Of a stretch of DNA of 59,317 nucleotides, positions 1,528-36,791 are shown one piece after another. Origin of the DNA: an uncultured bacterium (GTDB lineage Bacteria; Lernaellota; Lernaellaia; Lernaellales; Lernaellaceae); assembly GCA_964511015.1 (NCBI GenBank), contig CAZEDX010000020.1:1-59317 (forward strand), in the 5' to 3' direction. Position numbers and translations under genes: made by a program. Positions within the stretch are counted from its first letter, which is position 1, and each line of letters starts with the position of its first letter. Below the pieces are notes generated by a model that did not search any database, was not told the DNA's origin, and saw only the letters and a list, made by a program, of their open reading frames with translations.

Positions 1528-2718
1528 CTATTGGTCCGGGAGCTGGGAGGCGAGATACTGGACAATGCCGCTAGCGATAGCGTCCGCCAAACGACGGCGA
1601 TATGCCGGGTTGTCGAGCAAAACAGCTTCTTCTGCGTTTGTGGAAAAACCGGTTTCGACAAGAGTGGCGGCGACGCTCGACCCGGCGAGTAGGACCAACT
1701 GCGATCGCCGCACGCCGCGGTCAACCGAATGCGGGCGCGACGAACGAGCGACCGCCAACAACGTGTCATGCAACGACCGGGCAAGTCGCACGGAATCCTC
1801 ATGGACTTCCGCGGCGGCGGTGACGGCAGGAGGCGGACGAACCGGGGTCGGAGTCAAGTTGCCGCCATCCGGCGGTGGAAGCGGCTCGTCGGTCGGGTAG
1901 TAAAAGGTCTCGATGCCGTTGCTGTCCGGGTTCTCGCTGGCATTTACGTGAATCGATACGAACAGATCGGCGCGCAACTCATTGGCGATCGCGGCGCGCA
2001 CATCGAGCGGCAGGTATCGATCGTCTTCGCGCGTCATAAATACCCGCACGTTGGACAGTGAGCGAAGTTGATCGCGCACCCGTAATGCCATTTCCAACGT
2101 GAGTTCCTTTTCGACCAGGCGCGGGGTAATGGCGCCGACGTCATAGCCGCCATGGCCGGGATCGAGCACAATGGTAAAAATCCGCGGTACCGGCGTTGTC
2201 TCCGCAGGCACGGTAGCGGCAGAACCGCCGAGACGGGTCAGCGCTTCGCGGGCGATCTCGGCCTCAACAGCGTCGGCGAACTGGTCGACCACCATCTGAT
2301 AGCGTTCGCGTGCTGCCGCGCTGTCGCCTAGCTTTTGTTCCAAGATTTCGCCGGCTTTGAATAGCGCCTGGGCGGCAACAGCGCTGTCGGGGTATTGCCG
2401 TTGCAAGCGATCATAAACCCGGACAGCTTCCCGCCAGTCGTTTTTCTGCTTTGACCATTGCGCCAGGCGGGAATAGGCATCGCCTGCTGCGAAAAGCGCA
2501 TCAGCCGCGCGAGGATGTTGCGAACGTTGTTCGGCATAGGACAAAAATCCGCGAATATGCCGTTCCCACTTATGCCGTTGATGTTGCGCGTGGGTATCTC
2601 GCAGAAAGTGAAGATAGTCGTTCTTTAGCCGTTGATAGGCGTTCTCGCCTTCATCGGCCGAAGCCAGGGTAGCGAGTAGCAAGACGAGAATGACAAACAG
2701 CGCCGCGACGCGTTTCAC
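1528..2718 (-). CDS. N-acetylmuramoyl-L-alanine amidase (Amidase_3 domain) with signal peptide and N-terminal TPR-like repeats
   Basis: 396 aa. N-terminal signal MKRVAALFVILVLLLATLASA, then TPR-like helical repeats. C-terminal Amidase_3 signature (IVLDPGHGGYDVGA ... VSIHVNASEN ... GFSTNAEEA). 3-nt gap to xerD, 4-nt overlap with mutS. Confidence 0.8.
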   Translation of the reverse strand: MKRVAALFVILVLLLATLASADEGENAYQRLKNDYLHFLRDTHAQHQRHKWERHIRGFLSYAEQRSQHPRAADALFAAGDAYSRLAQWSKQKNDWREAVRVYDRLQRQYPDSAVAAQALFKAGEILEQKLGDSAAARERYQMVVDQFADAVEAEIAREALTRLGGSAATVPAETTPVPRIFTIVLDPGHGGYDVGAITPRLVEKELTLEMALRVRDQLRSLSNVRVFMTREDDRYLPLDVRAAIANELRADLFVSIHVNASENPDSNGIETFYYPTDEPLPPPDGGNLTPTPVRPPPAVTAAAEVHEDSVRLARSLHDTLLAVARSSRPHSVDRGVRRSQLVLLAGSSVAATLVETGFSTNAEEAVLLDNPAYRRRLADAIASGIVQYLASQLPDQ

Positions 2719-5354
2719 TTCAATTTCTCCTGCAATCGCGACAGTATGGTGAGCGCTTCGAGTGGAGTCAGACTGGCGATGTCGAGCGCACGAATTTCTT
2801 CCTCGAGCGGCGAGAGCGCCGGCGGCCCAAATAGGTCGAGCTGGCCAGTCTGGCGTTGCTTACGCTGGCGATGAGATTCGGCAAGTCGGACTTGTCCGAC
2901 CTCGTCGAATTCCGCCTTTTCCAGATTGGCTAGCACTTCCTTGGCGCGGGAGATCACATTGTCCGGCAATCCAGCCAGACGGGCAACTTGGATGCCGTAG
3001 CTGCGGCTGGTTGCGCCAGGGACGATCTTGCGCAGGAAAAGGATCTGATCGTTCCATTCCTTGACGGCGATGTTGTAATTGACCACGCCTGGTTTGGTGC
3101 GGGCCAGGTCGGTCAATTCGTGATAGTGCGTGGCAAACAGCGTGCGCGCGCCGACTCGTTCGGCGTCATGGATGTACTCCGCAACCGCCCAGGCAATCGA
3201 CAAACCGTCGAAGGTACTTGTGCCGCGGCCAACCTCGTCGAGTACCAATAGACTGCGGCGTGTGGCATTGCGCAAGATATCGGCCGTTTCAGTCATCTCA
3301 ACCATGAACGTGCTCTGGCCGCGCGCCAAGTTGTCGGACGCGCCCACGCGCGTAAACACACGGTCCACCAGACCCACACGGCAGCGCGAAGCCGGCACGA
3401 AACTGCCCATTTGCGCCATAATGACCAGCAAGGCCACCTGGCGGATGTAGGTCGATTTGCCGGCCATGTTCGGCCCGGTGATCAGCAGCAGGCGATTGTC
3501 CCGCGTGTCAAGCAAGGTATCGTTGGGTACAAATCGTTCGTTGGTGAACAACATCTCAACTACAGGGTGGCGGCCGTCGCGGATCTCCAACACATCTTGA
3601 TCATCAACGATCGGCCGGCAGTATCCGCGCTGTTCGGCAATGCGCGCGAACGAGGTCAGCACATCGAGCCAAGCGACAACGCGCGCCGTGGTTTGGATGC
3701 GTTGCACTTGGGCGGCAACCTGCTGGCGGATCTCGACGAACAGATCGTACTCGAGTTCCTTGACCCGGTCTTGCGCGGTCAGGATCTTTTCTTCGAGTTC
3801 CTTGAGCTGCGGTGTGATGAAGCGCTCGGCATTCACCAGTGTTTGCTTGCGGTGATAGTCGGCTGGGGCCAGATGCAGGTTGGATTTGGTGATTTCGATG
3901 TAGTAGCCGAAGACACTGTTGTAGCGGATGCGTAGGTTGGCGATGCCAGTGCGCCGGCGCTCCGCTTCTTCGATCTCGGCAATCACGCTTCGCCCGGCGT
4001 GAGCGATGTGGCGCAATTCGTCGACTTCGGCTCGGTAGCCGGCCTTGAGCAGACCGCCTTCGCGCAGCGCCAGCGGCGGTTCGTCGTCGATCGACTGTTC
4101 CAGCAATTCACGCACGTCGGTCAACAAATCGAGTTCGTTGGCCAGGCGGCGATACAACGTGTTTTCGAAAGCCGCCGCCGCACTCTGCAATGCCGGGAGT
4201 TGCCGCAGACTGTTACGCAGTGCAATCAGATCCCTTGCATTGCACGAGGCCAGGCCGATGCGGCCAGCGAGTCGTTCGAGGTCGTGAATCGACTGCATCG
4301 CCTCGATCAGGTCTTCGCGCTCGCTCGGTTTGCCGAAACACTCTTCCACCGCGTCGAGCCGTTCGTTGATCGCCTCGAGACGAGTGAGCGGATAGCAAAT
4401 CCACCGGCGCAAGAGCCGCGCGCCCATGGCCGTGCGGGTCTGATCGAGCACTTCCAGCAGCGTGCCTTTGCGGCCGCCGTCGCGCATGTTCCCCGTCAAT
4501 TCGAGATTGCGCTTGGCCGCCTCATCGAGCACGAGGAACGAGTCGGCCCGGTCGATCGACAGCCGCCGCAGATGGGCCAGGTCGCGTTTCTGGGTGATCA
4601 GCAGGTAGTGCAGTGCGGCCCCGGCGGCGCCCAACGCCGGCGCCAACGGCTGATCGCTTTCGTCGGGGCGGTAGTTGTCGAACTGCTTCGCGAGTTCCTC
4701 GCGCGCTCGCTCCGGATCGAACGCGGAGTCTTCCAGGTAGCTGACAAAACGGCCGGGCAGGGCGGCGATCAACTTCTTGGCGGCCTCATCCCCCTGGCGT
4801 GACTGCGGAAAAATAAACTCTGCCGGTTCTGCGCGCACGACCTCGTCGATCAGAGATTCCAGGTCGTCGGTCTGGCCGAGGCGGAATTCGCCAGTCGACA
4901 AGTCGGTCAGGCAGAAGCCATGCGCGCCGTCGCCCAGGCCGATCACCATTAGGAAATTGTTGGCTTTCTCGTCGAGTTCTTCGGTTTCGATGACCACACC
5001 CGGGGTCACCACGCGAGTAACCGCACGTTTGACAATGCCCTTGGCCAGGCGCGGGTCTTCCATCTGGTCACAGATGGCAACCTTTTCGTTGGCGCGAATC
5101 AACTTGACGAGATACTGGTTCAGCGCAAAGTGCGGCACGCCGCACAGTGGCACCGGCGTTTCGGTGCCCTTGGAGCGACTGGTAAGGGCGATATCTAGAA
5201 TCTTGCTGGCCTTTTCGGCATCTTCAAAGAACATCTCGTAGAAATCGCCCATGCGGAACAGCAGAATGTGGTCGGGGTATTCGGCCTTGATGTCGAGGTA
5301 TTGCCGAAGCATCGGCGTCATTTTGGCGATGTTCATGGGATAGCCAACACTCAC
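2715..5354 (-). CDS. mutS: DNA mismatch repair protein MutS
   Basis: 879 aa. N-terminal mismatch-binding region (TPMLRQYLDIKAEYPDHILLFRMGDFYEMFFEDA), Walker A GPNMAGKSTYIRQVAL, and a C-terminal dimerisation tail. True start may be the internal MNIAKMTPM (about 5336). Confidence 0.9.
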   Translation of the reverse strand: MSVGYPMNIAKMTPMLRQYLDIKAEYPDHILLFRMGDFYEMFFEDAEKASKILDIALTSRSKGTETPVPLCGVPHFALNQYLVKLIRANEKVAICDQMEDPRLAKGIVKRAVTRVVTPGVVIETEELDEKANNFLMVIGLGDGAHGFCLTDLSTGEFRLGQTDDLESLIDEVVRAEPAEFIFPQSRQGDEAAKKLIAALPGRFVSYLEDSAFDPERAREELAKQFDNYRPDESDQPLAPALGAAGAALHYLLITQKRDLAHLRRLSIDRADSFLVLDEAAKRNLELTGNMRDGGRKGTLLEVLDQTRTAMGARLLRRWICYPLTRLEAINERLDAVEECFGKPSEREDLIEAMQSIHDLERLAGRIGLASCNARDLIALRNSLRQLPALQSAAAAFENTLYRRLANELDLLTDVRELLEQSIDDEPPLALREGGLLKAGYRAEVDELRHIAHAGRSVIAEIEEAERRRTGIANLRIRYNSVFGYYIEITKSNLHLAPADYHRKQTLVNAERFITPQLKELEEKILTAQDRVKELEYDLFVEIRQQVAAQVQRIQTTARVVAWLDVLTSFARIAEQRGYCRPIVDDQDVLEIRDGRHPVVEMLFTNERFVPNDTLLDTRDNRLLLITGPNMAGKSTYIRQVALLVIMAQMGSFVPASRCRVGLVDRVFTRVGASDNLARGQSTFMVEMTETADILRNATRRSLLVLDEVGRGTSTFDGLSIAWAVAEYIHDAERVGARTLFATHYHELTDLARTKPGVVNYNIAVKEWNDQILFLRKIVPGATSRSYGIQVARLAGLPDNVISRAKEVLANLEKAEFDEVGQVRLAESHRQRKQRQTGQLDLFGPPALSPLEEEIRALDIASLTPLEALTILSRLQEKLK

Positions 5355-8559: not shown

Positions 8560-8880
8560 TTACTGCAGGCTCATCGGTGGTTTGGTCTTGCGCACCGGCT
8601 TGCCGTCGCTGGCCAGTTCGAGGTCTTCCAGAAAGCGCGCGCGACAGGCCGGGCATAAAACAAGACTGACTTCCATGTGTACCTGGTCTTCGATCGATTT
8701 CTCGTCGAGTCCCGCCAACTGTTCCAGCAACCGGTCTTTCGTGCGTTCGTCCACGTCCATGTCGGGCAGGTAACCGTCCCAGTCGGAGGTGATTTCGATG
8801 CGCACATTGTACTTGGTGGCCCCCAGCGGCAATTCCACGTTGCAACGATCGCAGTACTGGCTGGCAAACGCCGACTTCAT
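8560..8880 (-). CDS. Hypothetical zinc-ribbon protein (CxxC...CxxC), translationally coupled to selA
   Basis: 106 aa. CDRC ... CPAC cysteine pairs. ATG at 8880..8878 overlaps the selA TGA at 8879..8877 (ATGA overlap). Confidence 0.45.
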   Translation of the reverse strand: MKSAFASQYCDRCNVELPLGATKYNVRIEITSDWDGYLPDMDVDERTKDRLLEQLAGLDEKSIEDQVHMEVSLVLCPACRARFLEDLELASDGKPVRKTKPPMSLQ

Positions 8881-10298
8881 TGCTCCTCCGGCTTTCCACC
8901 AGTTAACGCTTCCACCATACTATTGTGGAAAAGCGTCTCTTCACCGTCAAGGATGGTGCGCGGATCGGCAATGATCCGGTCGTCCTCGATGCGCACGATG
9001 ATCGGTGTCGCCAGATTACGCAGCCGGGTGGTCAGGTCGGTAACCGAAGCCGTGGCCGGCCGGATCGCCAACACCGGGCCGGGCAATTCCGTAAGGGGCA
9101 GCGCGCCACCTCCTACCTGGGCCGTGCTATGGGCCAGAGAGACATCCGCTGCAGCACCAATAGCTTCGCGCAACCGGTTCGCCATGCGTTCCGCTTTTTG
9201 CTGCAACGAGGTCTCGTCCAACGACAACATGTGTAGGGTCGGAATCGCCGCGACGGCGGCATCGGGGTCGCGATACAGGCGCAACGTGGCTTCGAGCGCC
9301 GCCAAGGTCATCTTGTCCAATCGTAGCGCGCGGTGCAGTGGATTGCTTGCGCAAGCGCGGATCAGATCTCGCCGCCCGACCAGCACGCCGGCCTGCGGGC
9401 CACCCAGTAGCTTGTCGCCGCTGAAGGTAACCAGATCGAGGCCGTGGGCCACCACTTCCGCTGCGGTTGGTTCGGCCGGAAGACCGAAGCGGTCGATGCT
9501 CAGTAGCGAACCGCTGCCGAGGTCTTCGATGCTCACCACCCCTCGGCGCCGCGCCAGCTCCGCCAGTTCTGCGCCGGACACCGCGGTGGTGAAGCCCATG
9601 ATGCGGTAGTTGCTGGAATGGACCTTCAACAGCGCCGCGGTATTAGGGCCGATGGCCGCTTCGTAGTCGAACGAATGCGTGCGGTTGGTGGTGCCGACCT
9701 CCACCAGTCGGGCGCCGGACTGCATAAGCACGTCGGGGATGCGGAAGCTACCGCCGATTTCCACCAACTCGCCTCGACTGACCACGACCTCTCGGCCCGC
9801 CGCGACTGTCGCCAGAGCCAGCAAGACCGCCGCCGCATTGTTGTTGACGACCAATGCCGCCTCGGCCCCGGTCAACTCACATAACAGTCCTTCGACCAAA
9901 TCGTCGCGATGTCCGCGTTGGCCGGATTCAAGGTCGTATTCCAGATTCGAATAGCCCTGCGCGGCAAGCACGACCGCAGTCACCGCAGAGGCGGCGAGAG
10001 GCGAACGGCCGAGATTAGTGTGCACGATCACGCCGGTGGCGTTGATGACCCGTTGTAGGCGAGGCTCGGAAGCTCCCGCGGCGCGGCGGCGAATCGCCTC
10101 GTATAGGGCGGCCTGGTCGATCTGGCGGATCTGGCCGCCGAGAATGCCTGCCCGCAGGTGGTCGATCTCGTTGCGGATCGCTCGCACCACGAGCGTTCGC
10201 GGGTGTTTTTCACGCACGTCGGCCAGGGCGGGGTCGGCGATCAGTTCCCCGACAGCCGGCAACATTCTGAGCAATTGCGATTTGTCGTCCTTTGCCAT
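8877..10298 (-). CDS. selA: L-seryl-tRNA(Sec) selenium transferase (selenocysteine synthase) SelA
   Basis: 473 aa. N-terminal SelA_N region, a PLP fold with the FSGDKLLGGPQAG lysine motif, and overall SelA-like sequence throughout (INATGVIVHTNLGRS, SNLEYDL). Confidence 0.9.
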   Translation of the reverse strand: MAKDDKSQLLRMLPAVGELIADPALADVREKHPRTLVVRAIRNEIDHLRAGILGGQIRQIDQAALYEAIRRRAAGASEPRLQRVINATGVIVHTNLGRSPLAASAVTAVVLAAQGYSNLEYDLESGQRGHRDDLVEGLLCELTGAEAALVVNNNAAAVLLALATVAAGREVVVSRGELVEIGGSFRIPDVLMQSGARLVEVGTTNRTHSFDYEAAIGPNTAALLKVHSSNYRIMGFTTAVSGAELAELARRRGVVSIEDLGSGSLLSIDRFGLPAEPTAAEVVAHGLDLVTFSGDKLLGGPQAGVLVGRRDLIRACASNPLHRALRLDKMTLAALEATLRLYRDPDAAVAAIPTLHMLSLDETSLQQKAERMANRLREAIGAAADVSLAHSTAQVGGGALPLTELPGPVLAIRPATASVTDLTTRLRNLATPIIVRIEDDRIIADPRTILDGEETLFHNSMVEALTGGKPEEQ

Positions 10299-15827: not shown

Positions 15828-16619
15828 TTAATCCACGCCGAGCAGATCCTGGATCTTCGACTCGAATACGTTCAGATTGAGGTTCTTCTTGACGATGATC
15901 CGGTCCTGGTCGATCAACCAGTAGAACGGAATGTATCCGCCTGTATCGTTGTACTTAGAGGAAATCCGGAATCGGGAATCGGCTGCCACAATGAAGGTCA
16001 GTGTCGTATGGAGCGGCTGAATCTTGTCGTAGATGTAGTCAATCCAGTCCTGCAAATCGTCAACCGTGACTCCGCCGCCGTTGAAGTCCTCGCCGAGGAA
16101 TTGGATGACCAAGAAGCCATCGCCCTCATCCTTGTATTCCTGGTACAAACTCTCCAGCACGGGAGAGTCATCAGCACAGTACGGTCACCACATGGCGCTC
16201 ATGTCGAACAGAATGACCTTACCTTCTAGTTCGGCGTCATACAGGTTGAACGTTGTGCCGTCGCTGGCCGTGGCTTCGAAATCGGCCATCATGTCACCGA
16301 CCTCGGTGCCGATTTCGACGGTGTCGTCATCCGACGAATCGTCATCGACCGAAGTGTCGTCGTCGACCGAAGTGTCGTCATCGACGTTCGTATCGTCGTC
16401 CGTACTGGTGTCATCGTCGACAAACGTGTCATCATCCACACTCGAGTCATCGTCTACGAACGTATCGTCGTCAGAAGCGTCGTCGTCAAGAATGGCGTCG
16501 TCATCGGTGTCACCACCATTGTCGTCGTCATCGTCGCCACCGGAATCACAGGAAGCCGCGATCGTTAGTCCAGCTAGCGACAGAAAGAAGAGGAACAGGA
16601 AAAAGAATCTTAGGCGCAT
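15828..16619 (-). CDS. Selenocysteine-containing TlpA/ResA-like thiol:disulfide oxidoreductase lipoprotein (in-frame UGA = Sec at 16187..16185)
   Basis: ORFs 16185..16619 and 15828..16160 are in the same frame, separated only by TGA plus 8 sense codons. Read-through gives ...KVILFDMSAMW-U-PYCADDSPVLESLYQEY..., the thioredoxin-family xxFWAxWCxPC redox motif with Sec in the first Cys position. N-terminus carries a signal peptide and lipobox (LTIAASC) then a ~100-aa poly-Asp linker. A SECIS-like hairpin lies downstream of the UGA. selA is in the same window. Confidence 0.7.
16149..16168 (-). promoter_or_regulatory. SECIS-like hairpin 16 nt downstream of the in-frame UGA
   Basis: mRNA reads UGA-CCGUACUGUGCUGAUG-ACUCUCC-CGUGCU-GGAGAGU. 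That is a perfect 7-bp stem with a 6-nt apical loop containing G and U, at bacterial-SECIS-like spacing. Confidence 0.5.
16300..16545 (-). repeat. Imperfect tandem codon repeat encoding a poly-Asp (D-rich) low-complexity linker
   Basis: Repeated gtcgtcatcgac-type units. Translation is DDDDDNGGDTDDDAILDDDASDDDTFVDDDSSVDDDTFVDDDTSTDDD... Confidence 0.7.
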
Positions 16620-17802: not shown

Positions 17803-19188
17803 TTACTGTTCCGTGATCAAGACATCGATGCGCGTATTGCGCGCCCGACCCTCGGGCGTGCCATTTGGCGCCACCGGCACATCCGAACCCATGCCGATGG
17901 CCACCATGCGCGAAGCGTCGACGCCTCGTTGATAGAGGTATGCGAGCACCGCATCGGCGCGCGCTTGCGTCAGCTTCTGGGCGTCAGCGATGTCCGTCGC
18001 AACATGGCTTTCGATTTGGATCTTGACCTTCGGGTACTGCTGCAAAATCGCCGCCAGCTCGTCGAGCATCGCTTGATCGTCAATGGTTAAGACGGCGCTC
18101 TGTGCGCTGGCAAACGAAACCGGACGGGGCAGCACGAACCAGTCGCGCAGCATTAGCACGCCACTCGGACGGCGTACTATGACCGGATGCGAGACACCTT
18201 CCGGATCAGTGTAGGTATCCGGCGGCGGCGACGGCGGCAGCGGTGGCGCTGGAGCCACAGGCGGCAACGGCAGCGTCGCGGGCGGTGGAGGCGGTCCGTG
18301 CCTCAGTTTCGGATAGGAGAATGACACACCGGCGATGACCCGGTAGGTTGGACTGCCGATGGCCGTCGTGATGCCGAGTCCGCCGGCTAGGTGGAAATTG
18401 ATGCCGACCGGCGTATAGAAGCGGGCGCCCGCCAACGCTTCCAACGGTGCGCCGGCTTCGATACCATCGATTTGGTAGTCGACCGTCTTGCCGACAAACT
18501 CCCCGGTCAGGCCGAACCATTTTGCGATCGCGGCATGAACGCCGAAGCCGCCAAATACTTGACCCGCTGGTTCCAGGTCTTCCGGCTGACCCATGTAGCG
18601 GTAACCGACATTCATCACGAAATTGACCAGGCTCACGCGTTTGTCGAGAATCAGCGCAACCGACAAATTGGTCGCGTCCGCGCCAACATAGTAGTCAGGG
18701 TCGCCGGTTGCGAAAGAGCCCAGCACCACCAGGCCCAAGCCGACCGAGCGCGGTTCATTGTGTAGAAAGCGGATTTTCGCGCCGGCAAAAGCGTCGCCGA
18801 GCGCAGTACCTGACTCATCCTCGGTTTCCGACAAGCCAGAGATGCGGAAGGAGTCCAGATCCTGGCCGGCTACCATGTTGTAGCTACCGCCGGCCATCAG
18901 ATCCATCACCTCGAACAAACCGACCGCGCCATAGAACTGCGCAGCGCTGAGGCTGTCCACTACATTCAAGGTTTCGTCATAGTCTTCATATTCGAAACGC
19001 AGTGGTCCGCCGGCGGCATTGGCTTGCATGCCGAGTGCGAACTGCCCAAAGGCGAGGGGATCGCTGACATACAACGAGAATAGATTCTGCGGTCCCATGG
19101 CCGGCTGGACGTTCTGGATGTCGATGGCCCACGCTACCGATGCCGTCAACAACACCAGCAACGGAACCAGGATGAGGGCGCGTTTCAT
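17803..19188 (-). CDS. OmpA-family outer-membrane protein with Pro-rich linker
   Basis: Start refined to MKRALILVPLLVLLTASVAWA (signal peptide, RBS GAGGAG). ORF-track start 19308 is an upstream extension. N-terminal beta-rich domain, a PPPPPATLPLPPVAPAPPLPPSPPP linker, and a C-terminal OmpA_C peptidoglycan-binding domain (TDIADAQKLTQARADAV...NTRIDVLI). Confidence 0.7.
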   Translation of the reverse strand: MKRALILVPLLVLLTASVAWAIDIQNVQPAMGPQNLFSLYVSDPLAFGQFALGMQANAAGGPLRFEYEDYDETLNVVDSLSAAQFYGAVGLFEVMDLMAGGSYNMVAGQDLDSFRISGLSETEDESGTALGDAFAGAKIRFLHNEPRSVGLGLVVLGSFATGDPDYYVGADATNLSVALILDKRVSLVNFVMNVGYRYMGQPEDLEPAGQVFGGFGVHAAIAKWFGLTGEFVGKTVDYQIDGIEAGAPLEALAGARFYTPVGINFHLAGGLGITTAIGSPTYRVIAGVSFSYPKLRHGPPPPPATLPLPPVAPAPPLPPSPPPDTYTDPEGVSHPVIVRRPSGVLMLRDWFVLPRPVSFASAQSAVLTIDDQAMLDELAAILQQYPKVKIQIESHVATDIADAQKLTQARADAVLAYLYQRGVDASRMVAIGMGSDVPVAPNGTPEGRARNTRIDVLITEQ

Positions 19189-19202
19189 CCGTTTCTCCTC
19201 GT

Positions 19203-21488
19203 CTAGCGCTTGCGCCGCAGGGCGAACATAGTCAAAAGGGCAAAGAGCATCGGCAGCGCATTCGGCCAGTTGCCGTGTGCGCCGGAGCCAATACCACACT
19301 CGCCGCAAAGCTCTTCATCATCATCGTGGCCAATGTCGGGACAGCAGGTAGGCAGGTTGAGCATCTGCTGCGACGAACCACGGCCGCCGTTTGAGTCAAG
19401 CACCGTGAGAGTCACGGTCGCCGTGCCGTCGCCGCGGTAGTAGTGCGTAACATTTTTGCCCACGCCGGTGTAACCGTCACCGAAATCCCAGTAGTAACGG
19501 AGCGTAGCTCCTTCGGGATCAACCGAAGACGAGGCGTCGAAATCCCAGAGGCGGCTGTCGTCTGTTGTTTGTGCCGCGTCGAAATCGGCCGTCGGAGGCT
19601 GGTTGTCGACTTTGGGTCGTGCGGTAAACATGGTACGCACCTGGTTTTCCTGCGGCACCGGAATAGCGTCGTCTACCGATTCCGCGCCATCAACCGGCGC
19701 TTGCACGTACAACACAACGCGGCCATTTTCACCGAGGCCGACGTCCTTGATCGATACCGTCTGGCGCTTGTTTTCGTTGATGATTTCGTAGCCAGTGGAA
19801 ATGCCCGGCAGATAGAATTCAAGGTTAGCCGTCATGCCGGTCGGCAATCCGTTGACCACCGTGATCTGGGCGATTTCGGTTTTGCCGTCGTTGTTCGATT
19901 CCACCTTCCAGAAGTTGCCGGCCGGGATGCTCTGCCGGTTATCCACCTCATCCATGTAGTTGAGACTGGTCAGCACGTCGCCGGCGGCCTCGACCACTCG
20001 GTAACCGTCGTAGGCGCCCGGGATATCGCACGCCGAACCGAACGAAGTGGTCTGCACGAAGGTAATTGCGTCTTCGGCAACGAGGTCTGACACTTCATTG
20101 TCATCGCGATCGACGATGCGATCGCCGGCCTGGAACGACCAGATCCAATCGAAATGGTTGTGACCGAGGAAGATATAAGGCACGTGATAGCGGAGGCAGA
20201 GGCGGAGAAAGGTCGTGCCGGTATTTTGCTGAGGTGTCTCGTTTTCGATGCCGTCATAGATGTTCGAATCCCAAACGTTGGACTCGTAGTTCCAGTACTC
20301 GGTGCCGTCACCGGCGATCGGGTTTGTTGGGTAGGGTTTGTTGGCCGCGTACGGACCGCGCGGGTCGTGGTGCATGAACACGAGCGGTGTTTTGCCTTCG
20401 GCTTCGGCGTCGGCCAGCACATTGGCGACCCAGGCCATCTGTTCTTCGCTTAGGAAGCCACCCCAGTTGTCTACCGGCGAGGCCACGATCAACTTGCCGG
20501 TCTCACGACGCAACGGAGTACCGTCGTAGCTGTTCATCATCACGAAACGGAACTGCCCGACATCGAAGCTGTAATACAAGGGGCCCAGGGTGCGCGCGTA
20601 ATACTCGAGGTTGTCCTGTTTGACCTGGGTTTGCCAGTTCCACCAAGCGTAACCGTCGTGGTTGCCCGGAGCGAGGAACAGCGGGATCTGTGTCCGTTCC
20701 AACACGTGATACGACCACGCCAGTTCGTCGACAATGTTCAAACCCGAAGTCATGTCGCCGGTAAACACGGCGAAATCCGGTTTGAGTAAGGCGAATTCAT
20801 TGTAGATCTGGGTTTCCACCAGGTCCATGCCGATGCGCGTCTGGCCGGCGGTAGGATAGTCATGGTTGTTCAGCTCGTTCTCAAGGCTGTTCGAGCTGAT
20901 ATCGCCGGGCTGAGCATCGGTGAAATGGACGAACTTCAGCGCGCCGCCCATATCTTTCTTCACGCGCACCGACCCTGGCTGAACGTCGACGAACGCCACG
21001 GTCGCCACCTGCAGATGATAGGTGTCGTCGGGAATGCCGTCCGGAATTTCGCAGGTTAGTTGGTAAGTCAGCGAATCGACATCAAACAACACTTCCGCCA
21101 CCGCCAGGTCATAGTTCTGCGCTACCGTATCGCCGACCGTCGCATAGTCGTCGTACGGATTGGCAAACTGGGTGGTCAGACGGATTTGCCACTGGTTCGG
21201 ATCGAGATAGGCCTCGGGGTCATCAAACTTGACAATGACCGTCAGCGTGTCGCCCGGCTCGACGAAAGCGGGAAAGCCCAGCACCGGGTACACTAGGTAG
21301 GCGATGCGCTTGGCAATCGGATCAGTGCTGTTGGGCACCAATGACGAATAGTAGAGTCCGGGCGCGTTGGTAATGTTGTACGGCCAACCCATCAGGCTGT
21401 GGAGGCTGTCCGCTTGCGCGGACACCGTCAGCGTGAGAAGAAGAGCGAGCAAGACCAGCGACCGAGTGATGGAACTGCGCATAAACAC
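19203..21488 (-). CDS. Secreted calcineurin-like metallophosphoesterase with PKD domain and a Cys-containing C-terminal tripartite sorting signal
   Basis: 761 aa. Signal peptide. Metallophosphoesterase motifs (GDMTSG, GNHD, GHNH). PKD domain (RYYWDFGDGYTG). C-terminus is CCPDIGHDDDEELCGECGIGSGAHGNWPNALPMLFALLTMFALRRKR, i.e. Cys/Gly, then a hydrophobic helix, then a basic tail. Confidence 0.7.
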   Translation of the reverse strand: MFMRSSITRSLVLLALLLTLTVSAQADSLHSLMGWPYNITNAPGLYYSSLVPNSTDPIAKRIAYLVYPVLGFPAFVEPGDTLTVIVKFDDPEAYLDPNQWQIRLTTQFANPYDDYATVGDTVAQNYDLAVAEVLFDVDSLTYQLTCEIPDGIPDDTYHLQVATVAFVDVQPGSVRVKKDMGGALKFVHFTDAQPGDISSNSLENELNNHDYPTAGQTRIGMDLVETQIYNEFALLKPDFAVFTGDMTSGLNIVDELAWSYHVLERTQIPLFLAPGNHDGYAWWNWQTQVKQDNLEYYARTLGPLYYSFDVGQFRFVMMNSYDGTPLRRETGKLIVASPVDNWGGFLSEEQMAWVANVLADAEAEGKTPLVFMHHDPRGPYAANKPYPTNPIAGDGTEYWNYESNVWDSNIYDGIENETPQQNTGTTFLRLCLRYHVPYIFLGHNHFDWIWSFQAGDRIVDRDDNEVSDLVAEDAITFVQTTSFGSACDIPGAYDGYRVVEAAGDVLTSLNYMDEVDNRQSIPAGNFWKVESNNDGKTEIAQITVVNGLPTGMTANLEFYLPGISTGYEIINENKRQTVSIKDVGLGENGRVVLYVQAPVDGAESVDDAIPVPQENQVRTMFTARPKVDNQPPTADFDAAQTTDDSRLWDFDASSSVDPEGATLRYYWDFGDGYTGVGKNVTHYYRGDGTATVTLTVLDSNGGRGSSQQMLNLPTCCPDIGHDDDEELCGECGIGSGAHGNWPNALPMLFALLTMFALRRKR

Positions 21489-27955: not shown

Positions 27956-28993
27956 CTAGTTGGACACGCCCCGCATGCGCATGAAGATCTTCACCAGATC
28001 GGGATCGAACTGCGTGCCGGCGTTGCGTTCAATAATGCCCAGTGCACGGGATTCGCTCAGGGCGGGGCGGTAAGAGCGGTCGGAGGTCATCGCGTCGTAA
28101 GCGTCGCAGATGGTCATGATGCGCGCGCCAATGGGAATTTGCTGTTCCTTCAGCGAATCCGGATAGCCGTTGCCGTCGTAGAACTCGTGGTGGTGGCGGA
28201 TCATCTTCGATATCCGTTTGAACTGCGGCACCTGCTCCACGATCTTCTGGCTGATCAGCGGATGCGTCTTGATCAGATCGTATTCGTCGCTGGTGAGCTG
28301 ACCCTGTTTGTTCAATACCGATTCGGTGATGCCGATCTTGCCGATGTCATGGAACAGCCCGGCTAGGTGGATTTCTTCGATATCGAACGAGGAGAAGCTA
28401 AGCACCTGCGCCATCAACGAAGCGTTGTCCGCCACACGCCGGCTGTGGCCTTCGGTGTACTTGTCCTTCGCTTCCAACGCGCTGACCAGCGACCGGATCG
28501 TGGAAATGAGTAGCTGCTGCTTCTCCTGGTTGCGCAGACGCAGCGAGAGGGTTTTCTCCTTGATCTGCTTTTCCATATCCATCTGTAGGTCACGGCTGCG
28601 GCCGATCAGCTTGCGTTTCTCGATGGCGCGGTTCACCGAAAGCAACAACTCATAGCTATGGAACGGTTTGCCGATCAGGTCGTACACTCCGGCATCGATC
28701 AGCCGCCGCACCAGTTCGAGTTCCGGGTGGGAGGTCAGCACGATTACGTCGACGCCGTAGCCGGCTTCGCCGATGTAGGTCAAGAGGTTGAAGTTCTCGT
28801 TGCCGCCTAGATGCGAATCCGTGATCAGCAGATCTACCTGTTCGCGGTCGAGAATCTGCGTGGCTTGATCGGTATCCAACGCCTCGAGAACGTCGTAGCC
28901 GGCGGAATTGAGTACGTTTTTAAGGGTATCCAATAAAGGCTGTTCGTCGTGAATCAGTAATATTTTTTCGCCAACGCGTGTTCCGTTTCGCAT
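27956..28993 (-). CDS. Response regulator with REC and HD-GYP (c-di-GMP phosphodiesterase) domains
   Basis: 345 aa. REC domain (ILLIHDEQPLL...DLLITDSHL), HD-GYP domain with HDIGK and HHEFYDGNGYP. Confidence 0.8.
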   Translation of the reverse strand: MRNGTRVGEKILLIHDEQPLLDTLKNVLNSAGYDVLEALDTDQATQILDREQVDLLITDSHLGGNENFNLLTYIGEAGYGVDVIVLTSHPELELVRRLIDAGVYDLIGKPFHSYELLLSVNRAIEKRKLIGRSRDLQMDMEKQIKEKTLSLRLRNQEKQQLLISTIRSLVSALEAKDKYTEGHSRRVADNASLMAQVLSFSSFDIEEIHLAGLFHDIGKIGITESVLNKQGQLTSDEYDLIKTHPLISQKIVEQVPQFKRISKMIRHHHEFYDGNGYPDSLKEQQIPIGARIMTICDAYDAMTSDRSYRPALSESRALGIIERNAGTQFDPDLVKIFMRMRGVSN

Positions 28994-33172: not shown

Positions 33173-35470
33173 TTATGGGACCGGCGAAACCTCCGTCGGC
33201 ACCGCGATGGGTTGGCCCCATTTGGTGGGGCGCGCCGACATGACGAATTCCAGGATACCGCCCTCGGCAATCTGCGCATGCCGCAAGACCGGCGACCGGA
33301 GCGGTTCGCCGTTCAACGTCACCGATTCGACGTAAACGTTGCGCGGCGAGTTGTTTCGCGCGACGACGCGCAGGGTGCCCCGTGAAAGTTCCATGGTCAA
33401 CTCGGTGAACAACGGGCTGCCGATGACGTAGAGATCGCTGCCGGCCAACGGCATTAACCCCATGGCCGAAAAAATATACCACGCGCTCAGCGTGCCGGCG
33501 TCGTCGTTGCCGTCCAGACCGTCAGGCCGATCGCTGTATTTGGTGTCCATGACCCAACGCACCCATTTCTGCGTCAGGTCCGGCCGGCCGGCCAACGCAA
33601 ACATATACGGCGCGAAGATGTCGGGTTCGTTGCCATGCCAGTAGTACACCGGCGGGAACATGGTTTGCGCCTCGCGAGTGGCCTGCCGGAAGAAGGCGTT
33701 GAGCCGGCGCACGAAGCGGTCCGGCGAACCGTGCGCGTCGATCAGCCCCGGCATGTCGTGCGGCGCGTACCAGGACCATTGGTAGGCCGTGCCCTCGACA
33801 TACGGCTGGCCGAACACCCACTTCGGATAGAACGGCTCGTGGAACGATCCATCGGCGTCGCGGCCGCGTAAAAACCGAGTCTCGCGGTCCCACAGGTTGC
33901 GCCAGTTGCGGCTGCGCGCGGCGAACAGCCGGGCATCGTCATCACGGTTCATCAACGCCGCCCAGCGCGACAAGGCGAAATCGTCCCACGCGTATTCGAG
34001 CGTGAGGGTGGCGGCGCCGGGGTGGCGGTCGGCCGGCACATAGCCGCGGGCGATGTAGTGGCTGATCCCGCGCCGCGACGGATGTGGGATCTCGCCCAAC
34101 GCCTGCGCACGGCAGTAGCGCCAGGCCGTCTCGACGTCGAACCCGCGGTGGCCGGCGATCTTCTGATAGGCTTCCGACAAGACGATATCCGCACTCGCGC
34201 CGACCATGCATTCGGTGTCGCCATCGCCCAGCGGCCACATCGGCATGGCGCCGCCTTGCTCGGCCATCCAGACCAGCGATTGCATCATGTCGTTGCTCTC
34301 GCTCTGCGCGAGCAGGAACAAGAGCGGATGCAGCGTGCGGAAGGTGTCCCACAGCGAGAAGTTGGTGTAGTACACCCGGTCCGCGGCGTCGTGAATCCGG
34401 CCGTCAAAACCGAAATACCGGCCGTTGTTTTCGGACCACTGGTTGGGCATCAGATAAGCGTGGTACAGCGCGGTGAAAAACATGCGCCGCTGGGCGAGGG
34501 TGGCCCCCGCGATCTGCGCCTTGTTCAGCACGGCGCGCCACTGAGTCGCACACCGCTCGCGGACGGTGTCGAAGTCGCACGCGGCGACCGGTCCGCCCAG
34601 GTTCGCGCGGGCCTGCTCGATGCTCTGGTAGCTGATGCCAACCCCGATCACCAACGGCTCGTTTTCGTCCTCCGCGAAGCCCGCCAGCGCGCCGATGTCG
34701 TCGCCGTTTTCGCTCGTCGAACCGTCGCGAATCACCCCGTCGCGCCAGGTGGCGAAACTCGTCGGCGGACGCGAAAACCGCATGGCGAAATACACCACGA
34801 AACCACCGTGCGGCTCGGCCAGTTCACCGATCAGATGCAACTGGCCGCTGACCTCGCCCGCGACGGGGTCGAAGGTCAAGGCGGCGTCTCGCACGCGCCC
34901 GTTCGGAATGACGTGGCTGGGGTTGATGACCACGTACGGTTTTGCGCCGCGCCGCCAAGTGTAACGGTGATAGGCGGCGTAGCGCGCGGTGGTCAATTCG
35001 GCGAAGGTGCCGCTCCGCTGCAGGTAGACCGCGTAATAGCCCGGTTCGGCCTTTTCGCCGGTATGCGAATAGCGCGAACGGTAATCCTTTTCGCTGATCT
35101 TCCGCGCGGGCCGGCCGTCGATCGGCATCAGCGCCAGCGCGGCCAGATCGGAAATGCCGGTGCCGTGCAAATGTGTATGCGAGAAACCGCGAATTTCGGG
35201 GTCGAGATAGTAGTATCCGGCGCAGTGGCTGAAGCCTGGATTCAGCCCGTACATTGTCGTGTCTGGACTGAGCTGGAGAAAGCCAAACGGTAAGGTGGCG
35301 CCTGGGTAGGCGCTGCCGGCGTGATAGCCCAATCCCCCGGTCCCGATGAAGGGATCGACCGATGAATTCGGCTCGAATGCCCCCTCACCTGCGGGCTCTT
35401 GCGCGAAGGCAATAGCCGCCACCAGAATCTGGATTGCGGAGAGGAGTAGAACGGCCGTTCGAATGTGCAT
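33173..35470 (-). CDS. GH92-family alpha-mannosidase (alpha-1,2-mannosidase-like), secreted
   Basis: Refined start MHIRTAVLLLSAIQILVAAIAFA (signal peptide). GH92 hallmark VDPFIGTGG. About 765 aa, consistent with the family. ATG overlaps the GH1 stop by 1 nt (TGATG). Confidence 0.8.
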   Translation of the reverse strand: MHIRTAVLLLSAIQILVAAIAFAQEPAGEGAFEPNSSVDPFIGTGGLGYHAGSAYPGATLPFGFLQLSPDTTMYGLNPGFSHCAGYYYLDPEIRGFSHTHLHGTGISDLAALALMPIDGRPARKISEKDYRSRYSHTGEKAEPGYYAVYLQRSGTFAELTTARYAAYHRYTWRRGAKPYVVINPSHVIPNGRVRDAALTFDPVAGEVSGQLHLIGELAEPHGGFVVYFAMRFSRPPTSFATWRDGVIRDGSTSENGDDIGALAGFAEDENEPLVIGVGISYQSIEQARANLGGPVAACDFDTVRERCATQWRAVLNKAQIAGATLAQRRMFFTALYHAYLMPNQWSENNGRYFGFDGRIHDAADRVYYTNFSLWDTFRTLHPLLFLLAQSESNDMMQSLVWMAEQGGAMPMWPLGDGDTECMVGASADIVLSEAYQKIAGHRGFDVETAWRYCRAQALGEIPHPSRRGISHYIARGYVPADRHPGAATLTLEYAWDDFALSRWAALMNRDDDARLFAARSRNWRNLWDRETRFLRGRDADGSFHEPFYPKWVFGQPYVEGTAYQWSWYAPHDMPGLIDAHGSPDRFVRRLNAFFRQATREAQTMFPPVYYWHGNEPDIFAPYMFALAGRPDLTQKWVRWVMDTKYSDRPDGLDGNDDAGTLSAWYIFSAMGLMPLAGSDLYVIGSPLFTELTMELSRGTLRVVARNNSPRNVYVESVTLNGEPLRSPVLRHAQIAEGGILEFVMSARPTKWGQPIAVPTEVSPVP

Positions 35471-36780
35471 CACCGCCTCGCCAAATCCATCGTTTCCATG
35501 TCCCACGGATACTGGTCAAACCATTCCGCGCGAAGGGCATTGGCGCGCGCAATCTCGCCGTAAAAATGCCCCGACGGTTTTATCGTCCGGGCCATGGTTT
35601 GCGGATCGAACGAAATTAGTCCGAACTTCGGCAACCAGCCGTCTTCCCACTCGAAATTGTCGAGCAACGACCAGTAGAAATACCCCCGTACATCGGCGCC
35701 TTCGGCGATGGCTTCGTGCACCTGGCGTAGGTGCTCCAGAAGGTAGGCGCAGCGCCACGGGTCGTCATCGGTCGCCAGCCCGTTTTCGGTGATGTAGATC
35801 GGTTTGCCGAAGCTGGCCAGGCGCAGCAGATTTCGCTTCAAACCGGGGGGGTACGGCGCCCAGGCGGTTTGCGTCATCCGGTGTTTCGGACCAGCGTTCT
35901 CGGTGGCCAACGGCCAGGTGAACTTGCACCGGCTTTGGTTGTAGTAGTTCAGGCCCCAGAAGTCGATCGAACCGGCCAGGCCGGGCAGGGTTTTACCGTC
36001 GCCCAACGGCGGGTAACGCACCCCCGTGCGTACCCCCTCAATGATAAACGCGTTGTAGAGCCAATCGTGCTGCGCCGCGGCCAGGCGATCGAGGCGGCTA
36101 GATTCGTCATACGGTGTATAAAACGGCATGTTTTTGACCAAACCGATGCGCGTTTCCGGACTCGCTTCTTTGAGCGTGCGATAGGCGATGGCGTGCGCTG
36201 CCAGCAGGTTCTGCATCACCTTCCGGAACGCGAGTAGACTCTTGGTTCCCGGGGCGAAGTAGCCGAACAAAAAGCTCATCATCGCGTAAATCGCCGGCTC
36301 ATTGATTGTGTTCCAGAATCGCACGCGCCTGCCGTAGCGATCGGCGAGCAGCCTACAGTAGCGCTCGAAGTAGGCCAAATTCCGCTTTTCGACGAAGCCG
36401 CCGCGGTCGGCAAACCACGCCGGCAAGGTGAAGTGGTGGACGGTCACAAACGCCGTCAGCCCACGCTGTTCGAGCGCGTTGAGAACCGCGTGGTAATGCA
36501 TGATCGCTTCGTCGTCGTACTCGCCCGGACGCGGCTCGATGCGCGCCCATTCGATCGACAGCCGGACGGCGTTCGTGCCTAGCGCGCGGCACAGGTCGAA
36601 GTCCTCCGCAAAACGGTGGTAATGGTCGCACGCGCGGCCTGATTTTTCGTTGCGTTGGATATGCCCCGGCGTCTGCTCGTAGACCCACCAATCGGAGTGG
36701 ACGTTGTCGCCCTCCACCTGGTGCGCGGAGGTGGCCGTGCCCCAGAGAAAACCCGAGGGAAAAGACAGCGTGGAAGCCAT
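35470..36780 (-). CDS. GH1-family beta-glucosidase/beta-glycosidase
   Basis: Refined start MASTLSFPSGFLWGTATSAHQVEGD (GH1 N-terminal signature). Acid/base TINEP and nucleophile YITENG present. Confidence 0.8.
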   Translation of the reverse strand: MASTLSFPSGFLWGTATSAHQVEGDNVHSDWWVYEQTPGHIQRNEKSGRACDHYHRFAEDFDLCRALGTNAVRLSIEWARIEPRPGEYDDEAIMHYHAVLNALEQRGLTAFVTVHHFTLPAWFADRGGFVEKRNLAYFERYCRLLADRYGRRVRFWNTINEPAIYAMMSFLFGYFAPGTKSLLAFRKVMQNLLAAHAIAYRTLKEASPETRIGLVKNMPFYTPYDESSRLDRLAAAQHDWLYNAFIIEGVRTGVRYPPLGDGKTLPGLAGSIDFWGLNYYNQSRCKFTWPLATENAGPKHRMTQTAWAPYPPGLKRNLLRLASFGKPIYITENGLATDDDPWRCAYLLEHLRQVHEAIAEGADVRGYFYWSLLDNFEWEDGWLPKFGLISFDPQTMARTIKPSGHFYGEIARANALRAEWFDQYPWDMETMDLARR

Positions 36781-36791
36781 GTTTCCGCCCC

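What the first reader, a model, noticed from the sequence alone, without database searches (positions are those of the whole stretch)
15828..16619. Hidden selenoprotein: a TlpA/ResA-like thioredoxin-fold lipoprotein with Sec (UGA) in its W-U-P-Y-C redox motif and a SECIS-like hairpin
ORFs 16185..16619 and 15828..16160 are in the same frame. They are separated only by TGA (16187..16185) plus 8 sense codons. Joined, they read ...GKVILFDMSAMW-[TGA]-PYCADDSPVLESLYQEYKDEGDGFLVIQF... This matches the thioredoxin-superfamily thiol:disulfide oxidoreductase active site (xxFWAxWCxPC) with the stop in the position of the first redox Cys. That is the typical location of Sec in bacterial redox selenoproteins. 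Sixteen nt downstream the mRNA forms a perfect 7-bp stem (ACUCUCC/GGAGAGU) with a 6-nt apical loop CGUGCU. That spacing and loop content resemble a bacterial SECIS element. The selenocysteine synthase gene selA lies 6 kb away (8877..10298), so the organism decodes Sec. A standard gene caller would report two fragments or a pseudogene.
Basis: partly seen in the sequence, partly recalled or inferred. Interest (0 to 1): 0.85.

Follow-up and report, generated by a model that had tools for sequence, protein, structure and literature searches.

The report
Missed selenocysteine gene: TlpA-like lipoprotein
The two "fragments" are one gene for a membrane-anchored, exported thioredoxin-fold redox protein whose active-site cysteine is replaced by selenocysteine encoded by UGA; it is real, missed by standard annotation, and belongs to an already known class of bacterial selenoproteins.

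Summary
Window 15828..16619 (- strand) is one 263-codon gene with an in-frame TGA (16185..16187) in the motif W-U-P-Y-C.

- **Sec/Cys column:** Cys-containing homologues carry W-C-x-x-C there. Thirteen other homologous genes from unrelated metagenomes carry TGA, never TAA or TAG, at the same column.
- **Independent assemblies:** two assemblies, 98.8% and 93% identical at nucleotide level, keep the TGA. Codons downstream of it show purifying selection (22 synonymous vs 3 non-synonymous changes).
- **Hairpin:** it spans 16148..16169 (8 bp, loop CGUGCU, 23 nt between UGA and loop, -10.7 kcal/mol) and meets every published bacterial SECIS criterion. It recurs in register in 11 Sec forms with compensatory changes. 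It is absent in two Cys forms, one at the syntenic locus.
- **Genetic code and machinery:** TGA is the normal stop in 22 of 36 Pfam-supported genes. An intact selA lies 5.5 kb away. selB, selC and selD are not in the window.
- **Protein:** lipoprotein signal peptide, poly-aspartate tether, then a TlpA/ResA-like domain.
- **Organism:** probably related to Candidatus Lernaellota.

UxxC TlpA/redoxin/Prx-like selenoproteins are already catalogued, so this is a new member of a known kind. Function and selenium incorporation remain inferred.

The parts
15828..16619 (-). Complete selenoprotein gene. It has 263 sense codons including Sec145, with ATG at 16617..16619 and TAA stop at 15828..15830.
   Evidence: frame; Pfam across the junction; family alignment; purifying selection after the TGA.
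16548..16619 (-). Signal peptide with lipobox: MRLRFFFLFLFFLSLAGLTIAAS|C24.
   Evidence: Read from the sequence. Full-length relatives all have a hydrophobic N-terminus ending in [AG]C followed by the acidic region. No signal-peptide predictor was available.
16320..16547 (-). Poly-aspartate low-complexity tether (residues 25-100) with imperfect 18-nt / 6-aa repeats of the VDDDTS type.
   Evidence: Relatives carry similar D-rich linkers, many scored as PF18884 bacterial TSP3 repeat. That Pfam family was not detected in the window protein itself.
15831..16319 (-). TlpA/ResA-like thioredoxin-fold domain (residues 101-263).
   Evidence: AhpC-TSA and Redoxin, residues 107-248; ResA 4nmu, 1.8e-20; invariant C46, C49 and P132 in domain numbering.
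16185..16187 (-). Sec codon UGA (residue 145), at the position of the N-terminal active-site Cys.
   Evidence: it aligns with Cys in Cys forms and with TGA in 13 other genes.
16176..16178 (-). Codon of the resolving Cys148 of the U-P-Y-C motif.
   Evidence: invariant column.
16148..16169 (-). SECIS hairpin. The 5' arm is GACUCUCC (16162..16169), the loop is CGUGCU (16156..16161) and the 3' arm is GGAGAGUU (16148..16155).
   Evidence: -10.7 kcal/mol; consensus criteria; covariation; absent in Cys forms; 0.9% background.
8877..10298 (-). selA, selenocysteine synthase. It marks the Sec-decoding trait on the same contig.
   Evidence: PF03841 4e-158, full length; TIGR00474 equivalog, 608 bits against cutoff 268.

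Best explanation
Window 15828..16619 (- strand) is a single gene for a selenocysteine-containing, TlpA/ResA-like thiol:disulfide oxidoreductase.

Decoding. During translation, the UGA at 16185..16187 is decoded as Sec by SelB bound to Sec-tRNA(Sec). SelB is recruited by the hairpin 16148..16169, which lies inside the coding sequence with 23 nt between the UGA and its apical loop CGUGCU.

Localisation (inferred). The product is exported, lipidated on Cys24 and held away from the membrane by an acidic linker of about 75 residues.

Catalysis (inferred). The thioredoxin-fold domain carries a U145-P-Y-C148 redox centre. By analogy with ResA, CcmG, TlpA and Etrx proteins, Sec145 attacks a disulfide (or sulfenic/sulfoxide-derived species) in an extracytoplasmic substrate. 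Cys148 then resolves the mixed selenylsulfide. The oxidised Se-S form is re-reduced by a CcdA/DsbD-type membrane electron shuttle. The substrate is unknown.

Shown here: the reading frame, the Sec/Cys column, conservation of TGA, conservation and covariation of the hairpin, purifying selection downstream, and selA. Inferred: actual Se insertion, lipidation, the direction of electron flow and the partners.
For: - Frame and motif.
- Pfam AhpC-TSA and Redoxin are above threshold and span the junction.
- A full HMMER scan found a small family of 29 representatives. The full-length members are D-rich lipoproteins with W-C-x-x-C. Nine are roughly 100-aa fragments that start just after the motif.
- DNA of those fragments and of three more metagenome loci shows TGA at the identical column in 13 further distinct genes: L001, L002, L003 (three genes), L006-L010 and L035-L037. 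None has TAA or TAG there.
- Alignment A1 has invariant C46(U), C49 and cis-Pro P132.
- Independent assemblies L033 (98.8% nt identity) and L034 (93%) keep the TGA. In the 118 codons after the TGA, L034 differs by 22 synonymous and 3 non-synonymous codons, and L033 by 5 and 0.
- Loci with the same neighbours (class IV aminotransferase upstream, carbamoyltransferase downstream) have Sec (L035, L037). The Ca. Lernaella stagnicola locus (OmpA, aminotransferase, 121-aa ORF, LplA/B) has Cys.
- The hairpin has a 6-nt loop with G at position 2 followed by U, an 8-bp stem, 23-nt spacing and -10.7 kcal/mol. All four bSECIS criteria quoted from PMC13188914 Fig. 2A are met.
- The in-register hairpin has -5.4 to -10.7 kcal/mol in 11 Sec forms, against -0.6 and -0.2 in two Cys forms.
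- Covariation: pair 22-37 is A-U in 5, U-A in 4 and G-U in 1; pair 21-38 is C-G in 4 and G-C in 3. None of 500 shuffles reaches the observed covariation score. At the serine codon in the 3' arm, the choice between AGU and UCN, which is silent at protein level, tracks the partner base in all nine sequences where that pair is Watson-Crick.
- Only 0.9% of TGAs in the window have such a hairpin.
- TGA is the ordinary stop in 22 of 36 Pfam-supported genes.
- An intact selA lies on the same contig.
Against: - No Rfam SECIS family matches, even at E <= 10. Those models are specific to particular genes and lineages.
- selB, selC and selD are absent from the 59-kb window, so the full machinery is unverified.
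- The four core pairs of the stem (CUCC/GGAG) never vary and overlap conserved codons (xCU-CCC...GAG). Part of the hairpin conservation is therefore confounded with protein conservation.
- Only 11 sequences support the covariation.
- Three more distant Sec forms (L008-L010) do not share the in-register hairpin, although they have other hairpins.
- No neighbouring ccdA, dsbD or ccm gene hints at a partner.
- There is no experimental evidence for Se insertion.
Confidence: 0.9

Rival explanations
1. The gene is a pseudogene or a real truncation: a nonsense mutation destroyed a former Cys (TGT/TGC to TGA) and the downstream part is no longer translated.
For: TGA is one substitution away from TGY, and TGA is the normal stop codon here. 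Gene callers split the gene into two pieces.
Against: The same TGA occurs in 13 other, widely diverged homologues at 31-58% amino-acid identity. The downstream 118 codons show 22 synonymous against 3 non-synonymous differences at 93% nt identity. The domain stays alignable to its end across the family.
Confidence: 0.02
2. The TGA is a sequencing or assembly error in this contig.
For: A single-base difference from Cys (TGA against TGT or TGC). No read-level data were available.
Against: Two independent assemblies from other samples, L033 (GCA_020047475.1) and L034 (ERZ926545), carry the same TGA. So do 13 homologues from ENA, JGI and Logan assemblies.
Confidence: 0.01
3. UGA is read through but not as Sec, for example by near-cognate Trp-tRNA or Cys-tRNA, or because the organism reassigns UGA (genetic codes 4 or 25).
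For: Only selA, not the whole Sec pathway, is seen in the window. Insertion of Cys at Sec codons under selenium limitation is known from other systems (own knowledge).
Against: TGA terminates 22 of 36 Pfam-supported genes, so there is no reassignment. A conserved, covarying hairpin with bSECIS geometry is present in the main group of Sec forms and absent from the two Cys forms examined. An intact selA has no known role outside Sec synthesis.
Confidence: 0.04
4. There are two separate products: a 144-aa acidic lipoprotein, and an independent 110-aa protein started at GTG 16160.
For: This is what automatic gene callers report.
Against: The split would cut a thioredoxin fold inside its active-site motif. 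The 8 codons between the TGA and the GTG (PYCADDSP) are conserved and include the invariant resolving Cys. No Shine-Dalgarno sequence precedes the GTG. In the homologues, the first start codon after the TGA lies at varying distances.
Confidence: 0.01

Closest known systems
Predicted bacterial UxxC thioredoxin-fold selenoproteins. [quoted passage not shown] Sources: PMC13188914 Table 1, PMC9312934, PMC1088965.
   Same: The Pfam domains are the same (PF00578 and PF08534 above threshold). The UxxC motif has Sec in place of the N-terminal Cys. Cys-containing homologues exist. The SECIS lies within the coding sequence.
   Different: The representative accessions could not be fetched, so direct sequence relatedness was not measured. 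This protein has a lipoprotein signal and a long poly-Asp tether. No NCBIfam model, selenoprotein-specific or otherwise, reaches its cutoff. Its closest relatives form a small family of 29 representatives at 50% identity clustering.
ResA / CcmG(DsbE) / TlpA / Etrx extracytoplasmic thiol:disulfide reductases
   Same: The best solved-structure matches are of this type: ResA 4nmu at 1.8e-20 and S. pneumoniae Etrx-type 2yp6 at 5.4e-18. The active-site motifs align, and there is a conserved cis-Pro and a membrane anchor.
   Different: Sec replaces Cys. The scores are far below the NCBIfam cut-offs for ResA (39 against 170 bits), DsbE (22 against 123) and TlpA (21 against 230). No cytochrome c maturation, ccdA/dsbD or msr genes are adjacent.
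E. coli fdhF-type bacterial SECIS / bSECIS consensus model
   Same: It is a hairpin inside the ORF just downstream of the UGA, with a small apical loop carrying G then U near its 5' side. The spacing is within 16-37 nt and the energy is below -7.5 kcal/mol.
   Different: There is no sequence similarity to the Rfam SECIS families. No bulged U is evident. The loop consensus is CGNGYU on a CUCC/GGAG stem.

Membership tests
Bacterial selenoprotein gene (Sec-UGA recoding) | In-frame UGA aligned with Cys in homologues (a Sec/Cys pair) | tested here: met
   W-C-x-x-C in at least 7 full-length homologues aligns with W-[TGA]-P-Y-C.
Bacterial selenoprotein gene (Sec-UGA recoding) | UGA-containing homologues in other organisms, with conservation on both sides of the UGA | tested here: met
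   13 further distinct genes, always TGA; 22 synonymous against 3 non-synonymous codon differences downstream.
Bacterial selenoprotein gene (Sec-UGA recoding) | bSECIS element: 3-9 nt loop, 4-16 bp stem, G in the first two loop positions, 16-37 nt from UGA to loop, MFE <= -7.5 kcal/mol (PMC13188914 Fig. 2A) | tested here: met
   6-nt loop CGUGCU, 8 bp, 23 nt, -10.7 kcal/mol. Covariation is shown.
Bacterial selenoprotein gene (Sec-UGA recoding) | Sec machinery in the genome (selA, selB, selC, selD) | tested here: inconclusive
   selA is present and intact. No tRNA-Sec, selB or selD is found among the window's ORFs. The rest of the genome was not available.
Bacterial selenoprotein gene (Sec-UGA recoding) | Selenium actually incorporated at the UGA | not testable with these tools
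   This needs 75Se labelling or mass spectrometry.
Rfam bacterial SECIS families | A covariance-model match | tested here: not met
   Searches (gathering thresholds; E <= 10) give no bacterial SECIS hit at 16148..16187. The only SECIS_1 (eukaryotic) hit, at 16273..16340, has E = 8.1 and is noise.
TlpA-like / redoxin thioredoxin-fold family (PF08534, PF00578, cd02966-type) | Domain model above the curated threshold | tested here: met
   AhpC-TSA 46.7 bits (cutoff 26) and Redoxin 44.4 bits (cutoff 26.6). ResA structures down to 1.8e-20.
TlpA-like / redoxin thioredoxin-fold family (PF08534, PF00578, cd02966-type) | W-C-x-x-C active site and a conserved cis-proline | tested here: met
   W45 is nearly invariant; C46 (U here), C49 and P132 are invariant.
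ResA / TlpA / DsbE orthologues sensu stricto | NCBIfam subfamily or equivalog score above cutoff | tested here: not met
   ResA 39.1 against 170 bits, DsbE 21.6 against 123, TlpA 21.1 against 230.
ResA / TlpA / DsbE orthologues sensu stricto | Genomic association with cytochrome c maturation or ccdA/dsbD genes | tested here: not met
   None is present among the Pfam-annotated window genes or in the neighbours of L042, L035 and L037.
Peroxiredoxin (AhpC/TSA sensu stricto) | Peroxidatic Cys in the PxxxT/SxxC context | tested here: not met
   The sequence reads FDMSAMW-U-PYC, a thioredoxin-type WCxxC motif with no PxxxT/S. The 'peroxiredoxin' names that JGI gives to relatives reflect only the Pfam hit.
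Bacterial lipoprotein | Signal peptide ending in a lipobox with an invariant Cys | tested here: inconclusive
   The N-terminus MRLR-(hydrophobic)-IAAS|C fits the lipobox pattern as I recall it (PROSITE-type). The feature is conserved in relatives. No dedicated predictor was run.

The most novel reading that the evidence does not exclude
These genes may form a distinct, so far uncatalogued subfamily of cell-envelope selenoproteins, largely confined to Lernaellota-like uncultured bacteria. The architecture is a lipid anchor, a poly-Asp (TSP3-like, possibly Ca2+-binding) tether, and a TlpA-like U-x-x-C domain. The subfamily would have its own conserved SECIS (CUCC-CGNGYU-GGAG), which forces the peptide motif [ST]-P-[VG]-L-E-S. 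It would show frequent Sec/Cys switching at one syntenic locus and tandem amplification (three Sec paralogues in a row in L003).
Probability: 0.4. Interest if true: 0.4.

Novelty: new member of a known kind. Interest (0 to 1): 0.3.

Why it matters
Public records hold this gene only as unnamed fragments. The 110-aa piece is present, while the 144-aa piece is not in the protein collection as an exact sequence. Correcting it adds a selenoprotein to a poorly known candidate phylum. The description of Lernaellota (PMC9324843) contains neither 'selenocysteine' nor 'selenoprotein'.

The Sec and Cys forms found at syntenic loci, together with the Sec-specific hairpin, give a clean natural example of how a SECIS constrains the coding sequence. 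They could also serve as a test set for selenoprotein finders. None of this changes the current understanding of Sec decoding or of TlpA-like proteins.

Tried and rejected
- **Single-sequence word-indexed search:** it found only the gene's own 110-aa fragment, so it was uninformative.
- **The search of protein representatives:** I used the 118 residues after the TGA instead.
- **Rfam at gathering and permissive thresholds:** no bacterial SECIS match. I treat this as uninformative, because bSECIS elements are diverse (PMC13188914).
- **Genome-contig scan:** it returned only distant generic TlpA-like genes at 27-45% identity. The window's genome is apparently not a species representative in that collection.
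- **Alignment A1:** it was too diverse for the metagenome scan. The narrower alignment A2 worked.
- **DNA alignment A3:** it placed a codon gap inside the 3' arm of the hairpin and was discarded in favour of the ungapped 42-nt alignment A4.
- **Promoter and terminator scan:** nothing found.
- **Scan of all in-frame TGAs and all bSECIS-like hairpins:** no second selenoprotein candidate in the window.
- **Peroxiredoxin assignment:** rejected, because the peroxidatic motif is absent.
- **Structure prediction:** not attempted, because the tool does not accept the joined, edited sequence.

Full report
**Observation**

On the - strand, ORF 16185..16619 (144 aa) and ORF 15828..16160 (110 aa) share a frame. 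They are separated by TGA (16185..16187) plus eight sense codons. Read through, the 263-residue product is MRLRFFFLFLFFLSLAGLTIAASC-(about 75 residues rich in Asp)-TVEIGTEVGDMMADFEATASDGTTFNLYDAELEGKVILFDMSAMW-U-PYCADDSPVLESLYQEYKDEGDGF...LLGVD.

Sixteen nt after the TGA there is a hairpin with arms GACUCUCC and GGAGAGUU: seven Watson-Crick pairs plus a closing G-U, and loop CGUGCU. It spans 16148..16169. It appears in the MFE and centroid folds and has -10.7 kcal/mol on its own.

**Fold**

With U replaced by C, the protein passes the Pfam gathering thresholds for AhpC-TSA (46.7 bits) and Redoxin (44.4 bits). The matches cover residues 107-248, so they span the TGA. A profile of the family matches solved ResA, Etrx and TlpA-type structures best (4nmu at 1.8e-20), and the family's wC-x-x-C aligns on ResA's WCKPC. 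The scores against the NCBIfam models for ResA, DsbE and TlpA are far below their cut-offs. The protein is therefore TlpA/ResA-like but not an orthologue of any of them. It lacks the peroxidatic PxxxT/SxxC motif, so it is not a peroxiredoxin.

**Comparative evidence for Sec**

- A full HMMER scan with the 118 residues after the TGA found only 29 cluster representatives.
- The full-length ones (for example P0003, P0004, P0006, P0008, P0009, P0014, P0019, P0022) have the same architecture: lipoprotein-type N-terminus, poly-Asp linker, thioredoxin-fold domain. They read ...DSSAMWCPPC......AAWCPGC... and so on, placing Cys exactly at the TGA column.
- Nine representatives are fragments of about 100 aa that begin just after the motif. 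Their contigs show that each is preceded, in frame, by W/Y-[TGA]-x-x-C and an open upstream frame.
- A metagenome scan added three full-length genes with the same architecture and the same TGA.
- In total 14 distinct genes, counting the window, have TGA at this column and none has TAA or TAG.
- Alignment A1 has C46 (U), C49 and P132 (the likely cis-proline) invariant.

**Not an error or a pseudogene**

Two independent assemblies of close relatives retain the TGA: L033 (98.8% nt identity) and L034 (93%). In the 118 codons downstream of the TGA, L034 differs at 22 synonymous and 3 non-synonymous codons, and L033 at 5 and 0. The downstream frame is therefore under purifying selection. TGA is the ordinary terminator in 22 of 36 Pfam-supported genes in the window, which excludes a reassigned genetic code.

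**SECIS**

The published consensus (PMC13188914 Fig. 2A) requires a 3-9 nt loop, a 4-16 bp stem, G in the first two loop positions (usually followed by G or U), 16-37 nt between UGA and loop, and MFE <= -7.5 kcal/mol. The window element has a 6-nt loop C-G-U-G-C-U, 8 bp, 23 nt and -10.7 kcal/mol, so it meets all of them.

- The same hairpin, in the same register, occurs in 11 of the 14 Sec genes, with energies of -5.4 to -10.7 kcal/mol. Its consensus is a CUCC/GGAG core with loop CGNGYU. Two Cys forms, one of them at the syntenic locus (L042), have essentially no structure there: -0.6 and -0.2 kcal/mol.
- On the ungapped alignment A4, 83% of cells pair, against 37-53% for slid registers.
- Three pairs show compensatory changes. 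Pair 22-37 is A-U in 5, U-A in 4 and G-U in 1. Pair 21-38 is C-G in 4 and G-C in 3. Pair 20-39 is A-U in 6 and G-C in 1.
- None of 500 shuffles reaches the observed covariation score.
- At the serine codon in the 3' arm, the silent choice between AGU and UCN follows the partner base: UCU with AGU, ACU with UCN.
- The Sec forms of this main group are restricted to Val or Gly (GUG or GGG) at the loop codon, whereas the Cys forms have S, K, Q, A, I or V there. This looks like an imprint of the RNA element on the protein.

Several limits apply. The four core pairs are invariant and overlap conserved codons. The sample is small. The three more distant Sec forms (L008-L010) use different hairpins. 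The Rfam SECIS models do not match.

As a background figure, 0.9% of TGAs in the window are followed by a comparable hairpin. This is the only one embedded in a long open frame on both sides.

**Sec machinery and organism**

selA (8877..10298, -) is intact: TIGR00474 at 608 bits and full-length Pfam SelA. No tRNA-Sec, selB or selD lies in the window.

The closest named SelA (62% identity) is from Candidatus Lernaella stagnicola. It sits on a contig of 218,941 bp, the same length as the contig that carries the syntenic Cys form L042. The gene order is shared: OmpA, class IV aminotransferase, this gene..., 121/123-aa ORF, LplA/B. L035 and L037 (Sec forms) share the aminotransferase and carbamoyltransferase neighbours.

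I infer that the window comes from an uncultured bacterium related to candidate phylum Lernaellota. The description of that phylum contains neither 'selenocysteine' nor 'selenoprotein'.

**Mechanism**

Shown: the gene structure, the recoding signals and the fold. Inferred from established knowledge of ResA, CcmG, TlpA and Etrx proteins: the protein is exported, lipid-anchored at Cys24 and held on an acidic tether. Its U145-x-x-C148 centre acts as an extracytoplasmic reductase. Sec is the attacking nucleophile and Cys148 the resolving residue. The centre is recycled by a CcdA/DsbD-type shuttle. No neighbouring gene identifies a substrate.

**Comparison with known families, and novelty**

UxxC selenoproteins with PF00578, PF08534 or cd02966 domains are listed among predicted prokaryotic selenoprotein families. 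[quoted passage not shown] By those reviews' own rule (same domain plus same Sec motif means same family), this gene is a new member of a known kind.

Some features are possibly subfamily-specific: the lipoprotein and poly-Asp architecture, the restricted family, the shared SECIS, and the fact that no NCBIfam model captures it. I could not compare directly with the catalogued representative accessions.

**Verdict**

Confidence that this is a genuine Sec-encoding gene is about 0.9. Interest is modest (0.3), because the class is known and the decoding mechanism is canonical.

Noticed in passing
L003 896..1588, 1679..2566, 2677..3309 (also in L004 and L005): Three paralogous genes of this family lie head to tail. 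Each has its own in-frame TGA at the W-U-x-x-C column and its own in-register hairpin, so this is a tandem array of three selenoprotein genes. The 131,948-bp contig has the same length as the longest contig listed for a SelA homologue (P0077), which suggests selA is on the same contig.
   Followed up: partly
Sec and Cys forms therefore alternate at one conserved locus.
   Followed up: partly
P0012 (239 aa): One homologue reads SSAMW-R-R-Y-C, with Arg at the Sec/Cys column. CGA and AGA are each one substitution from TGA, so this may be a mutated former Sec codon or an error. Its DNA was not examined.
   Followed up: no
window 16323..16502: The acidic linker is built from imperfect tandem repeats of 18-nt period (VDDDTS-type). 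Relatives' linkers are often scored as PF18884 bacterial TSP3 repeat, but the window protein itself does not hit that model.
   Followed up: partly
L034 5600..5725: In the 93%-identical relative, similarity to the window stops inside the acidic linker. The upstream frame shows no signal peptide. The cause may be an assembly break in the repeat or a rearranged 5' end.
   Followed up: no
window 33173..39470 (-): A run of three glycoside hydrolase genes (GH92, GH1, GH31). This fits the saccharolytic lifestyle described for Lernaellota (PMC9324843).
   Followed up: no
window 17803..19308 (-) and 19203..21488 (-): An OmpA-family protein with a proline-rich linker lies next to a PKD-domain metallophosphoesterase. 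The OmpA neighbour is conserved next to the aminotransferase in Ca. Lernaella (L042).
   Followed up: no
window 27956..28993 (-) and 57769..58881 (-): Two response-regulator/HD-GYP-type (HD_5) proteins are present. The second follows a histidine-kinase ATPase fragment at the window's end.
   Followed up: no
L008, L009, L010: A more distant Sec subgroup (AAFW-U-G/T-x-C) lacks the in-register hairpin but has other hairpins downstream of the UGA. L010's loop is CGUGA with 20-nt spacing. L009 has a 7-bp stem with loop GGA at 29-nt spacing.
   Followed up: partly
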